Below are positions 6,400-57,020 of a stretch of DNA of 64,000 bases, piece by piece; the first letter of the stretch is position 1; every line of letters begins with the position of its first letter. Source of the DNA: Granulosicoccus sp. (GTDB taxonomy: Bacteria > Pseudomonadota > Gammaproteobacteria > Granulosicoccales > Granulosicoccaceae). Under the pieces are notes generated by a model. It saw only the letters and a list, made by a program, of their open reading frames with translations. It was not told the origin of the DNA and made no database searches. The position numbers and the translations under genes were made by a program. Where the stretch lies: positions 27,612-91,611 of the forward strand of contig JAHDGK010000007.1 in the NCBI GenBank assembly GCA_020627685.1, given 5' to 3'.

Positions 6400-6724
6400 C
6401 GTGGTTTTTCAACCGTTTTTGAGCAGCTTGATACGGCGGAATTCTCGTTGAAAGTTTGACGCCTAACGGTTACCGCATGCGGTATTGGAAGAAAGGCAAA
6501 AGGTTGACGACCTGACTAGCCAATATGTTAGCCGGAATGTCGTGAAAGGTTAAAAGGTGAGTCAGTTCCCAAAAACGTCTTGGTCGGGTTAAACCGAGTT
6601 GACTCGTTTAAATAGGAAATAGCCATGCAGTTAGTGTCAGTTATTTGCCGAAAAGCAGGTGCTGACGGTCTTTAGCAAGACTTTGAGGCATTTTTTTTAA
6701 TTAAATTTGATTTCTGAGGAGAAG

Positions 6725-6740
6725 TGGCCTGCCGATTGCA
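6725..6740 (+). promoter_or_regulatory. Sigma54 (-24/-12) promoter candidate
   Basis: TGGCCTGCCGATTGCA has GG-N10-GC spacing matching TGGCACG-N4-TTGCW, and is preceded by an AT-rich tract (about 6691-6713). Confidence 0.55.
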
Positions 6741-6750
6741 ACATCTCTGG

Positions 6751-6829
6751 CACGCAAGTGTAGTTTTCTCCTCCATCATCCCAAAGGATGTTTAATCAGC
6801 GCAATCTTCGGATCGCGCTGTTTTTTTTT
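6751..6829 (+). ncRNA. Candidate ~80-nt small RNA with anti-SD motif
   Basis: Lies between the sigma54 box and an intrinsic terminator. Predicted GCAA-tetraloop hairpin, single-stranded UUUUCUCCUCC, CAUCC/GGAUG hairpin and a cUUCGg-capped terminator; no ORF. Confidence 0.5.
6797..6829 (+). terminator. Rho-independent terminator with no coding gene immediately upstream
   Basis: CAGCGC-A-ATC-TTCG-GAT-C-GCGCTG followed by T9. Confidence 0.8.
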
Positions 6830-6943
6830 GTAAACTACTGATTTAAATAGTAGTTCAATCTTCAGACGTCTTGAGTCAGAAGCTGGGGAGTGTGTCACAT
6901 TGGTCACAACACCCAATCAATCGATGAAATGTTTACCTGAGAG

Positions 6944-6972
6944 TTGAGCTTCGGCAAAACCTGCTTTACAAT
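6944..6972 (+). promoter_or_regulatory. Sigma70 promoter of rplM-rpsI
   Basis: TTGAGC-17 nt-TACAAT followed by a GC-rich discriminator (GGCGGGC). Confidence 0.7.
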
Positions 6973-55985: not shown

Positions 55986-56015
55986 TCACTCCAATTAGCT
56001 AAAGGAGAATGTTGC

Positions 56016-57020
56016 ATGAAGAAACTGATACGAGGAGCAGGGCTTGCAGTCATCGGTACCGTACTGGGTAGTGCCTCGCTCAATGCTGTAGCTGCCGACG
56101 ATGTGACCTTGCAATTAAAATGGGTAACGCAAGGACAGTTTGCGGGTTACTACGTCGCACAAGACAAGGGCTTTTACGACGAAGCTGATCTAAACGTCAC
56201 CATCAAGCCAGGTGGGCCCGATATTGCCCCTCCGCAGGTCATTGCGGGTGGTGGTGCGGATGTCATCGTCGATTGGATGCCGTCGGCTCTGGCGAGTCGA
56301 GAGAAAGGTGTACCGCTAGTCAACATTGCGCAGCCGTTTAAACGCTCCGGCATGATGCTGACATGCCGAAAAGAAACAGGAATTACGTCGCCGGAAGATT
56401 TTCGTGGCCGAACCTTGGGCGTGTGGTTTTTCGGCAATGAATATCCTTTCCTGAGCTGGATGTCTTCACTGGGTATTCCAACCGAAGGTGGTGATGATGG
56501 TGTCACAGTCCTGAAGCAAGGCTTCAATGTTGATCCTTTATTGCAAAAGCAAGCAGACTGTATTTCTACTATGACCTACAACGAATACTGGCAGGTCATC
56601 GATGCCGGCATCCCGGAAGACCAACTGGTTGTATTCAAGTATGAAGACCAAGGTGTTTCTACCATGGAAGATGGTTTGTACGTGTTGGAAAAAAATCTGG
56701 CTGACGATGCGTTCGTCGATAAGATGGCTCGTTTCGTCGCGGCCAGCATGAAAGGGTGGGAATACGCGCGTGCTAACCCGGATGAGGCGGCTGATATCGT
56801 CTTAGAAAACGATGCCAGTGGTGCTCAAACTGAAAAGCACCAGCAACGCATGGTTCGTGAAATCAATAAGCTAACGGATGGCAGCGACGGATCACTTGAT
56901 GTGGCCGATTACGAGCGCACTGTTCAAACGCTGTTATCCGGTGGCTCCGATCCTGTTATCAGTAAGGAACCTGAAGGTGCCTGGTCAGCCGTTGTTATCG
57001 ACAAAGCACTAGCCATGTAA
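56016..57020 (+). CDS. ABC substrate-binding protein (NMT1/THI5-like), probably pyrimidine-binding
   Basis: Signal peptide, LQLKWV.Q.QFAGYYVA.DKGFY and PGGPDIAP; AAAGGAGA RBS. Confidence 0.9.
   Translation: MKKLIRGAGLAVIGTVLGSASLNAVAADDVTLQLKWVTQGQFAGYYVAQDKGFYDEADLNVTIKPGGPDIAPPQVIAGGGADVIVDWMPSALASREKGVPLVNIAQPFKRSGMMLTCRKETGITSPEDFRGRTLGVWFFGNEYPFLSWMSSLGIPTEGGDDGVTVLKQGFNVDPLLQKQADCISTMTYNEYWQVIDAGIPEDQLVVFKYEDQGVSTMEDGLYVLEKNLADDAFVDKMARFVAASMKGWEYARANPDEAADIVLENDASGAQTEKHQQRMVREINKLTDGSDGSLDVADYERTVQTLLSGGSDPVISKEPEGAWSAVVIDKALAM

What the first reader, a model, noticed from the sequence alone, without database searches (positions are those of the whole stretch)
6725..6829. Candidate sigma54-dependent small RNA with an exposed anti-Shine-Dalgarno motif upstream of rplM
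Seen: the 600-bp gap between osmC and rplM holds an intrinsic terminator (6797-6829, cUUCGg loop, T9) with no gene to terminate, because rplM has its own sigma70 promoter at 6944-6972. A well-spaced -24/-12 box at 6725-6740 predicts +1 near 6751, giving a ~80-nt RNA: a CAC-GCAA-GUG hairpin, single-stranded UAGUUUUCUCCUCC, a CAUCC-CAAA-GGAUG hairpin and the terminator. Established: Hfq-type sRNAs such as AbcR and GcvB use CU-rich seeds to pair with ribosome-binding sites, and sigma54-driven sRNAs exist (Qrr, NrsZ). Inference: an undescribed trans-acting sRNA, possibly nitrogen-responsive. UUCUCCU is complementary to AGGAGAA leaders, such as the one before the ABC substrate-binding gene at 56016. 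Alternative: a longer RNA in which GAGGAGAA (6716-6723) pairs with UUCUCCUC.
Basis: partly seen in the sequence, partly recalled or inferred. Interest (0 to 1): 0.62.

Follow-up and report, generated by a model that had tools for sequence, protein, structure and literature searches.

The report
Sigma54-driven anti-Shine-Dalgarno small RNA
This is a real, conserved gene for a roughly 80-base regulatory RNA in marine Granulosicoccus bacteria; it belongs to a known family of RNAs thought to silence genes by covering their ribosome-binding sites, but in this genus its ordinary promoter has been replaced by a sigma-54 one.

Summary
Window 6725-6829 contains a TGGC-N7-TTGCA box, a short 5' hairpin, an unpaired GUUUUCUCCUCC tract, a second hairpin and a strong terminator with a U9 tail.

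An RNA-only covariance model finds one copy in 40 of 48 Granulosicoccus genomes. It always lies between osmC and rplM-rpsI. 16 of the 18 modelled base pairs show compensatory changes.

All 40 copies carry the -24/-12 box just upstream, although the model did not include it. The rest of the upstream DNA cannot be aligned.

The RNA is not a new kind. Relatives score up to 47.1 bits against Rfam RF02278 (cut-off 50). RF02278 is the "toxic" or double-hairpin sRNA family: NcS27/bdhR1 in Burkholderia and S17 in Bordetella. Sub-threshold RF02278 hits occur in 108 of 400 sampled Gammaproteobacteria, mostly upstream of rplM, and the copies examined lack a sigma-54 box.

The best reading is a positional orthologue of this anti-Shine-Dalgarno family whose promoter class has switched to sigma-54.

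- No NtrC sites were found, so nitrogen control is unsupported.
- The activator and the targets are unresolved.

The parts
6725..6740 (+). Predicted sigma-54 (-24/-12) promoter, TGGCCTGCCGATTGCA
   Evidence: It matches the consensus at 10/12 positions with correct GG-N10-GC spacing. An equivalent box scores 9/12 or better in 40 of 40 genus loci found with an RNA-only model. The spacer varies while TGGC..G....TTGC stays fixed. rpoN is present in the genome.
6751..6829 (+). Predicted primary sRNA transcript, about 76-79 nt. The +1 is inferred as 12 nt downstream of the -12 C and is not mapped.
   Evidence: The conserved block in relatives runs from 6718 to 6828. The covariance-model hit covers 6743-6830 at 81.8 bits. 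Predicted length is 74-82 nt in 38 of 40 loci.
6751..6760 (+). 5' mini-hairpin, CAC-GCAA-GUG
   Evidence: All 3 pairs show double changes, but only 76% of cells are paired. The hairpin is absent in some members (L094, L098, L102), where the seed starts about 7 nt from the predicted +1.
6763..6774 (+). Single-stranded seed GUUUUCUCCUCC (anti-Shine-Dalgarno, equivalent to "Site 1" of the family). The AG|UUUU junction is a possible RNase E site (inference).
   Evidence: It is invariant in the 15-sequence alignment. The unpaired probability is 0.9 or higher. It aligns to the 5' CU-rich site of RF02278.
6777..6790 (+). Hairpin 2, CAUCC-CAAA-GGAUG. An alternative register is CAUC-AUCCCAAAG-GAUG.
   Evidence: 89% of cells are paired and 3 of 5 pairs show double changes. 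In most relatives the loop carries a second CU-rich motif, CUCCCUGA or UCCUCCU.
6791..6796 (+). U-rich linker UUUAAU before the terminator (inferred part of an Hfq-binding module)
   Evidence: A UU dinucleotide here is invariant (T49 and T50 of alignment A2). hfq is present in the genome. Hfq binding itself was not tested.
6797..6829 (+). Rho-independent terminator: 10-bp stem with one A-C mismatch, UUCG loop, U9 tail
   Evidence: All 10 pairs show compensatory changes and 97.4% of cells are paired.
6716..6724 (+). Purine-rich GAGGAGAAG box abutting the -24 element and complementary to the seed. Status is uncertain and it lies outside the predicted transcript.
   Evidence: Complementarity of 6 nt or more at this position occurs in 7 of 40 loci, against 1-2 of 40 in control windows. 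It is confined to one subclade.
6944..6972 (+). Separate sigma-70-type promoter of rplM-rpsI. This is context and not part of the sRNA.
   Evidence: TTGAGC-17-TACAAT. The same sequence recurs downstream of the terminator in relatives.

Best explanation
Window 6725-6829 encodes a trans-acting, probably Hfq-dependent small RNA of about 80 nt.

It is the Granulosicoccus orthologue of the double-hairpin anti-Shine-Dalgarno sRNAs known as toxic sRNA, NcS27/bdhR1 and S17 (Rfam RF02278 and its sub-threshold relatives). These lie upstream of rplM in many Gammaproteobacteria.

Its unpaired UUUUCUCCUCC tract pairs with GGAG-type ribosome-binding regions of several mRNAs and lowers their translation and stability. 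This step is inferred from the family's experimental record. Transporter solute-binding-protein genes are the likeliest class of target.

The special feature in this genus is the promoter. Transcription starts from a sigma-54 -24/-12 promoter instead of the sigma-70-type promoter seen elsewhere. The RNA would therefore be made only when one of the genome's few enhancer-binding proteins is active. Which protein, and in response to what signal, is unknown.

The same terminator probably also ends osmC transcripts.
For: Shown here:
1. Conservation. An RNA-only covariance model finds one copy in 40 of 48 genus genomes, and in 26 of 30 high-quality ones. The window's genome has a single copy.
2. Structure. 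91.7% of pair cells are paired and 16 of 18 pairs carry double changes. None of 500 shuffles reaches the observed values, and slid controls give 31-46% paired.
3. Promoter. The box was not in the model, yet it scores 9/12 or better in all 40 loci and 10/12 or better in 38. The 30 best out-of-genus family loci score 8/12 at most. The genome-wide background is 170 sites of 10/12 or better.
4. Upstream DNA. It cannot be aligned apart from this box.
5. Required factors. The genome has one rpoN, one hfq and five strong enhancer-binding proteins.
6. Family link. RF02278 hits genus members at 24.5-47.1 bits (E = 1.9e-6 for L094) across its full length. No other Rfam family matches.
7. Orthology. The order vfr-osmC-sRNA-rplM-rpsI is kept in all 40 genus loci. 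It recurs in other families (L106, L120, L130). 22 of the 30 top out-of-genus loci lie upstream of rplM and/or rpsI on the same strand.
8. Seed accessibility. The unpaired probability is 0.9 or higher.

From the literature:
- Family members are expressed, Hfq-dependent and repress via RBS pairing. Targets include many transporters and a sigma-54 activator (PMC11722255).
- NcS27 overexpression slows growth (PMC5688073).
Against: - There is no expression evidence.
- No conserved upstream activator site was found, and there are no NtrC dyads.
- In three relatives osmC ends about 100 nt upstream, which leaves little room for a UAS outside coding DNA.
- The window's own RNA scores only 22.2 bits against RF02278, and its hairpin-2 loop lacks the second CU-rich site.
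- Target prediction is non-specific. The seed matches any strong SD. Top hits include rplC, ftsZ, ssb and clpB as well as solute-binding proteins.
- Perfect 11-mer complements are only about 1.4 times the reversed-pattern control.
- 8 of 48 genus genomes gave no hit, including one that is 100% complete.
Confidence: 0.72

Rival explanations
1. The sRNA is real, but the TGGC-N7-TTGC box is not a working sigma-54 promoter. The RNA would be made from an unrecognised sigma-70-type promoter, or by processing of osmC read-through. The box would be conserved for another reason, for example as a regulator binding site or as part of a precursor.
For: - No UAS or activator site was found.
- Family members elsewhere use sigma-70/sigma-A promoters and RNase E processing of a longer precursor (PMC11722255).
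- osmC has no terminator of its own and ends about 100 nt upstream in L066, L068 and L070.
Against: - The conserved positions are exactly the sigma-54 consensus positions, while the spacer varies.
- The box sits at a near-constant 19-26 nt from the seed in 38 of 40 loci.
- No -35/-10 pair is conserved upstream.
- Nothing between osmC and the box is conserved, which is unexpected for a functional precursor.
Confidence: 0.15
2. The region is a cis-acting leader or attenuator, or an insulator, of the rplM-rpsI ribosomal-protein operon. It would not be a trans-acting RNA.
For: Linkage to rplM-rpsI on the same strand is strict. It holds in all 40 genus loci and in 22 of the 30 top family loci from other gammaproteobacterial families.
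Against: - A strong terminator (U9) is followed by a separate, conserved sigma-70 promoter for rplM.
- The rplM translation start region (CCGAGAUACCCCCAUAGUG) has no complementarity to the seed.
- No ribosomal leader family in Rfam matches.
- The Bordetella family member S17 lies between BP3151 and coq7, not upstream of rplM, and acts in trans (PMC11722255).
Confidence: 0.07
3. It is only the osmC terminator with fortuitous upstream motifs, or it encodes a small protein. Candidate ORFs are GTG 6724 to TAA 6793 (23 codons) on the plus strand, and the 35-aa and 46-aa ORFs on the minus strand.
For: It is the first terminator after osmC. Short ORFs overlap the region.
Against: - Conservation starts at the -24 box, 326 nt after the osmC stop, and not at osmC.
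- A 12-nt tract is invariant with no third-position pattern.
- 1- and 2-nt indels between blocks break every reading frame.
- The candidate start codon is CTG in about half of the loci.
- Helices covary.
Confidence: 0.04

Closest known systems
Betaproteobacteria toxic small RNA (Rfam RF02278): double-hairpin sRNAs ncS03, ncS05, ncS27 and ncS62, also called bdhR1, of Burkholderia cenocepacia (PMC5688073, PMC4603805)
   Same: - The layout matches: a 5' unpaired CUCCUCC site, a short hairpin (in most relatives with a second CU-rich loop), a GGUUU linker and a terminator hairpin with a U tail.
- The short form is about 60-70 nt.
- Full-length matches to the model reach 47.1 bits in the genus.
   Different: - The window copy scores 22.2 bits and no genus member reaches the 50-bit cut-off.
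- The host is a gammaproteobacterium in the strict sense.
- There is one copy per genome rather than 3-5.
- The promoter is a sigma-54 box.
- There is an extra conserved U4-6 run 5' of the CU site.
- The window's hairpin loop is CAAA, not CU-rich.
S17/S17S of Bordetella pertussis (PMC11722255)
   Same: It belongs to the same family. In the cited study, unpaired Sites 1 and 2 pair with RBS regions, the RNA is Hfq-dependent, and many targets are transporters. The conserved AG|UUUU junction here could be the equivalent RNase E site (inference).
   Different: - S17 is made from a sigma-A promoter as a 190-nt precursor and is processed by RNase E.
- S17 lies between BP3151 and coq7, not upstream of rplM.
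- S17 represses a sigma-54 activator. Here the RNA itself appears to be sigma-54-dependent, and no activator mRNA shows conserved complementarity.
Sigma-54-dependent sRNAs: Qrr1-5 (LuxO), NrsZ (NtrC; PMC4253122), GlmY (GlrR; PMC4152352), CrcZ (CbrB; PMC8871633)
   Same: Each is a small RNA gene behind a -24/-12 promoter, so RNA output reports the activity of one enhancer-binding protein.
   Different: There is no sequence or structural relationship: no Rfam hit to any of them. Their activators and binding sites are known, whereas none could be identified here.
Neisseria NmsR/RcoF sibling sRNAs (RF02877), and the CU- or GU-rich RBS-masking sRNAs GcvB and AbcR
   Same: They have the same working principle: an exposed pyrimidine-rich seed masks the RBS of transporter and metabolic mRNAs.
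   Different: There is only a weak chance-level hit (RF02877, 30.3 bits against a cut-off of 52, E = 0.73). The architectures differ.

Membership tests
Rfam RF02278 (toxic / double-hairpin sRNA; NcS27/bdhR1, S17) | Covariance-model score at or above the gathering cut-off (50 bits) | tested here: not met
   The window scores 22.2 bits. Genus members score 24.5-47.1 bits, with the best E-value 1.9e-6. These are significant but sub-threshold.
Rfam RF02278 (toxic / double-hairpin sRNA; NcS27/bdhR1, S17) | Unpaired 5' CU-rich anti-SD site (Site 1) | tested here: met
   UCUCCUCC is invariant, unpaired with probability 0.9 or higher, and aligned to model positions 3-10.
Rfam RF02278 (toxic / double-hairpin sRNA; NcS27/bdhR1, S17) | First hairpin with a second CU-rich loop (Site 2) | tested here: inconclusive
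   The hairpin is present and covaries. The loop is CU-rich (CUCCCUGA or UCCUCCU) in most relatives. In the window's best fold it is CAAA, and only the alternative register exposes AUCCC.
Rfam RF02278 (toxic / double-hairpin sRNA; NcS27/bdhR1, S17) | Second hairpin is a Rho-independent terminator with a U tail | tested here: met
   10-bp stem plus U9. All pairs show compensatory changes.
Rfam RF02278 (toxic / double-hairpin sRNA; NcS27/bdhR1, S17) | Shared genomic position with other family-like copies (orthology) | tested here: met
   22 of the 30 best RF02278-like loci from other gammaproteobacterial families lie upstream of rplM and/or rpsI on the same strand. Three (L106, L120, L130) show the full vfr-osmC-sRNA-rplM-rpsI order.
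Rfam RF02278 (toxic / double-hairpin sRNA; NcS27/bdhR1, S17) | Sigma-70/sigma-A promoter, with a short form released by RNase E processing | tested here: not met
   A sigma-54 box replaces the TTGACA-N17-TATTAG-type promoter seen in many out-of-genus loci. Processing cannot be tested with these tools.
Rfam RF02278 (toxic / double-hairpin sRNA; NcS27/bdhR1, S17) | Hfq dependence, repression of RBS-complementary mRNAs, growth inhibition on overexpression | not testable with these tools
   hfq is present. No transcriptome or binding data could be reached.
Sigma-54-dependent promoter | GG and GC dinucleotides exactly 10 nt apart within TGGCACG-N4-TTGCW | tested here: met
   The window matches at 10/12. 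All 40 genus loci score 9-11/12.
Sigma-54-dependent promoter | rpoN and enhancer-binding proteins encoded in the genome | tested here: met
   One rpoN. Five strong Sigma54_activat proteins, one of them a bona fide NtrC.
Sigma-54-dependent promoter | Upstream activator sequence for an enhancer-binding protein | tested here: inconclusive
   No motif is conserved across the genus within 300 bp. NtrC-dyad scores equal those of controls. A TGTGTTAGCYGG motif about 190-215 bp upstream occurs in one subclade only.
Sigma-54-dependent promoter | Mapped start 11-13 nt downstream of -12, and loss of the transcript in an rpoN mutant | not testable with these tools

The most novel reading that the evidence does not exclude
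The RF02278-type anti-Shine-Dalgarno sRNA is not a betaproteobacterial speciality. It is an ancient, rplM-anchored locus spread across Gammaproteobacteria in the GTDB sense.

Granulosicoccus has rewired this orthologous locus from sigma-70 to sigma-54 control. Global masking of ribosome-binding sites, mainly of solute-uptake genes, would then be switched on by an enhancer-binding protein.

Relatives in Bordetella and Burkholderia repress sigma-54 activators. The rewiring could therefore have turned a regulator of the sigma-54 regulon into one of its outputs or into a feedback element.
Probability: 0.3. Interest if true: 0.6.

Novelty: new variant of a known kind. Interest (0 to 1): 0.42.

Why it matters
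It would be a clear case of an orthologous sRNA gene keeping its seed, fold and chromosomal position while exchanging its promoter class. That makes the evolution of sRNA regulatory wiring directly testable.

It also suggests that the "toxic sRNA" family is much broader than its Rfam threshold and name imply, and that it is physically tied to the rplM-rpsI ribosomal operon.

For Granulosicoccus, an abundant associate of kelp and seagrass, it names a likely global post-transcriptional brake on nutrient-uptake genes under the control of one of only about five sigma-54 activators.

If the promoter proves inactive, what remains is an ordinary new member of a known family.

Tried and rejected
- **Rfam at gathering thresholds.** Nothing in the whole window.
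- **Nitrogen/NtrC control.** A scan for TGCACC-N5-GGTGCA within 300 bp upstream of 40 loci gave scores no better than coding controls.
- **A shared UAS.** MAFFT alignment of 19 upstream regions shows nothing conserved except the -24/-12 box. The palindrome TACCGCATGCGGTA (6471-6484) is already broken in the 92%-identical relative.
- **The long-RNA alternative** (GAGGAGAA pairing with the seed). It shows only weak, subclade-limited enrichment.
- **Small-ORF reading.** Frames are broken by indels and start codons are inconsistent.
- **Targets in the window's genome.**
  - Contiguous-complement and duplex-energy scans give generic strong-SD genes.
  - The only 12-mer perfect site in the genome (contig C62, upstream of a 104-aa ORF) is not conserved in the closest relative.
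  - The proposed site at 56005-56011 is a 7-mer.
- **Feedback on sigma-54 activators.** No activator TIR has extended complementarity. The GAGGAGA at the NtrX-like gene (contig C7) is not conserved in 30 orthologues.
- **Genus-wide search for the perfect 11-mer complement.** 68 non-self sites against 48 for the reversed control. No single gene recurs across the genus.

Full report
**What is there.**
- TGGCCTGCCGATTGCA at 6725-6740
- CAC-GCAA-GUG at 6751-6760
- UAGUUUUCUCCUCC at 6761-6774
- CAUCC-CAAA-GGAUG at 6777-6790
- a 10-bp terminator with a UUCG loop, one A-C mismatch and U9 at 6797-6829

RNAfold gives this structure at -21.8 kcal/mol with z = -2.78. The CU tract is unpaired with probability 0.9 or higher. 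The promoter scan finds rplM's own TTGAGC-17-TACAAT. It finds no other terminator between osmC and 6797, so the hairpin probably also ends osmC transcripts.

**Organism.** A pattern scan of about 185,000 species genomes for the box plus the seed returned 45 records. Fifteen are Granulosicoccus or Granulosicoccaceae, and the other 30 are scattered over unrelated phyla, as chance predicts. The window's genome is 4.9 Mb, with one rpoN, one hfq and five strong sigma-54 activators. One of the activators is a bona fide NtrC.

**Is it a conserved RNA gene?** BLASTN in relatives shows a conserved block that starts at about 6718 and stops at 6828. That span is the promoter through the terminator.

I built a covariance model from the transcribed part only. 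It finds one copy in 40 of 48 genus genomes and in 26 of 30 high-quality ones. The window's own genome has one copy.

On the 42-row model alignment:
- 91.7% of pair cells are paired, against 80.6% in shuffles and 31-46% when partners are slid.
- 16 of 18 pairs carry double changes.
- None of 500 shuffles reaches any observed measure.
- The terminator is 97.4% paired, with all 10 pairs compensated.
- Hairpin 2 is 89% paired.
- The 3-bp 5' hairpin is 76% paired, and some members lack it.

This alignment was fitted to the model, so the counts lean towards the structure. The independent RNAalifold run on a MAFFT alignment already recovered the terminator, with five compensated pairs.

A 12-nt tract, GUUUUCUCCUCC, is invariant in the 15 closest sequences. 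Indels of 1-2 nt between blocks and inconsistent start codons exclude the overlapping short ORFs.

**Is the sigma-54 box real?** The model did not contain the box. Even so, all 40 primary hits have TGGC-N7-TTGC immediately upstream. Against TGGCACG-N4-TTGCW they score 9/12 (2 loci), 10/12 (22 loci) or 11/12 (16 loci).

The whole genome holds only 170 sites of 10/12 or better on both strands. That is about 0.002 expected per 110-bp window.

The spacer varies while the consensus positions are fixed. The predicted start lies 11-14 nt before the seed in 34 of 40 loci, and the predicted length is 74-82 nt in 38 of 40. Everything further upstream cannot be aligned.

This pattern is what a promoter predicts and not what a transcribed precursor predicts. 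I therefore rate sigma-54 dependence as likely. It remains inferred for three reasons:
- No activator site was found.
- NtrC-type dyads are absent.
- Transcriptome data were unreachable.

**What family is it?** Rfam gives nothing at gathering thresholds. With E-value reporting, the window hits RF02278 (Betaproteobacteria toxic sRNA) at 22.2 bits. Relatives reach 47.1 bits over the full model, with E = 1.9e-6.

RF02278 comprises the "double-hairpin" sRNAs ncS03, ncS05, ncS27 and ncS62 of Burkholderia cenocepacia. They are expressed, they carry CU-rich RBS-complementary sites, and overexpression attenuates growth (PMC5688073, PMC4603805). The family also includes the homologous S17 of Bordetella pertussis. 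S17 has a sigma-A promoter, is processed by RNase E to a 67-nt form and is Hfq-dependent. It represses a sigma-54 activator directly and is predicted to pair at or near the RBS of about 70 further genes, many of them transporters (PMC11722255).

I searched RF02278 over 400 genomes sampled evenly across the GTDB class. 108 genomes had hits at E of 1e-3 or better, and only 2 were above the cut-off.

The 30 best loci share the consensus GACUCCUCCAUCCUCCUUUGGUGGUUU plus a terminator. None has a sigma-54 box, and many have TTGACA-N17-TATTAG. Twenty-two lie upstream of rplM and/or rpsI on the same strand. Three show the full vfr-osmC-sRNA-rplM-rpsI order. No other Rfam family covers them.

In Granulosicoccus the same order holds in every locus. 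The window's RNA is therefore best read as the positional orthologue of this widespread family, with its promoter class exchanged. A sister genus of the same family (G241) has two tandem copies without the box.

**Mechanism.** By analogy with S17 and NcS27, the exposed UUUUCUCCUCC would pair with GGAG-type ribosome-binding regions with help from Hfq. The U-rich linker plus the U9 tail form a typical Hfq module.

The conserved AG|UUUU junction fits the RNase E preference. It could yield a 66-nt form resembling S17S. This is inference only.

**Targets.** I could not pin down targets. Complementarity scans in the genome return generic strong-SD genes. Perfect 11-mer complements across the genus number 68, against 48 for a reversed control.

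Among those at true start sites or 5' UTRs, several encode TRAP or ABC solute-binding proteins. That agrees with the family's known targets, but it is anecdotal.

Three specific ideas failed:
- The site at 56005-56011 is a 7-mer.
- The NtrX-like gene's GAGGAGA is not conserved.
- The anti-seed box at 6716-6724 is only weakly enriched.

**Verdict.** The locus is a genuine sRNA gene of a known kind. It sits below the Rfam threshold and has a well-supported but untested sigma-54 promoter, which I found in none of the 30 out-of-genus family copies examined and saw reported in none of the papers read here.

Noticed in passing
L103-L132 (loci from 30 other gammaproteobacterial genomes): RF02278-like double-hairpin sRNAs are far more widespread than the Rfam cut-off shows. 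108 of 400 sampled genomes have hits at E of 1e-3 or better, and only 2 exceed 50 bits. 22 of the top 30 sit just upstream of rplM and/or rpsI on the same strand. Many have a TTGACA-N17-TATTAG promoter and a 5' extension of about 35 nt.
   Followed up: partly
L166, L176, L180, L190 (minus strand of the GGAGGAGAAAA match; genomes G032, G013, G067, G025): These four genomes carry a second, sibling sRNA-like gene. It reads UUUAGUAUGG-UUUUUCUCCUCC-UGUAGUAC followed directly by a GGGCGCC...GCGCCC terminator and a U tract. The seed is the same as in the rplM-linked RNA, there is no sigma-54 box, and it is absent from the window's genome.
   Followed up: partly
G000 contig C91, about 1508-1640; also L145, L154, L170, L173: A TRAP-type solute-binding-protein gene (MKFTHLLGATALSA...) has a conserved, structured 5' UTR. 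A GGAGGAGAAAA box (GAGGAGA in the window's genome) lies 73 nt before the ATG. An internal CCUCC (CCUCU here) could pair either with that box or with the true SD, GGAGGAAC. This may be a switch that the sRNA could flip.
   Followed up: partly
window 6548-6580: GGTTAAAAGGTGAGTCAGTTCCCAAAAACG resembles GGTGAGCCAGTTCAAAAA. In other species (L084, L086, L087, L092) that sequence encodes the C-terminal tail of OsmC. Here it lies about 150 nt after the osmC stop, so it looks like a relic of a longer osmC.
   Followed up: no
window 6524-6536; L072, L074, L075, L077, L082, L089: A TGTGTTAGCYGG motif lies about 190-215 bp upstream of the -24 box in one subclade only. In four genomes it is followed by GTGTTACA 16 nt later. 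It could be an activator site, but it is not genus-wide.
   Followed up: no
L120 (G241, sister genus of the same family), minus strand 1370-1430 and 1501-1562: Two tandem RF02278-like copies (37.9 and 44.4 bits) lie between osmC and rplM without a sigma-54 box. The promoter switch is therefore specific to the genus Granulosicoccus.
   Followed up: partly
L093 (G020) and L100 (G005): In two genus members the sigma-54 box lies about 23 nt further upstream. This predicts 104-105-nt RNAs with an extra 5' segment.
   Followed up: no
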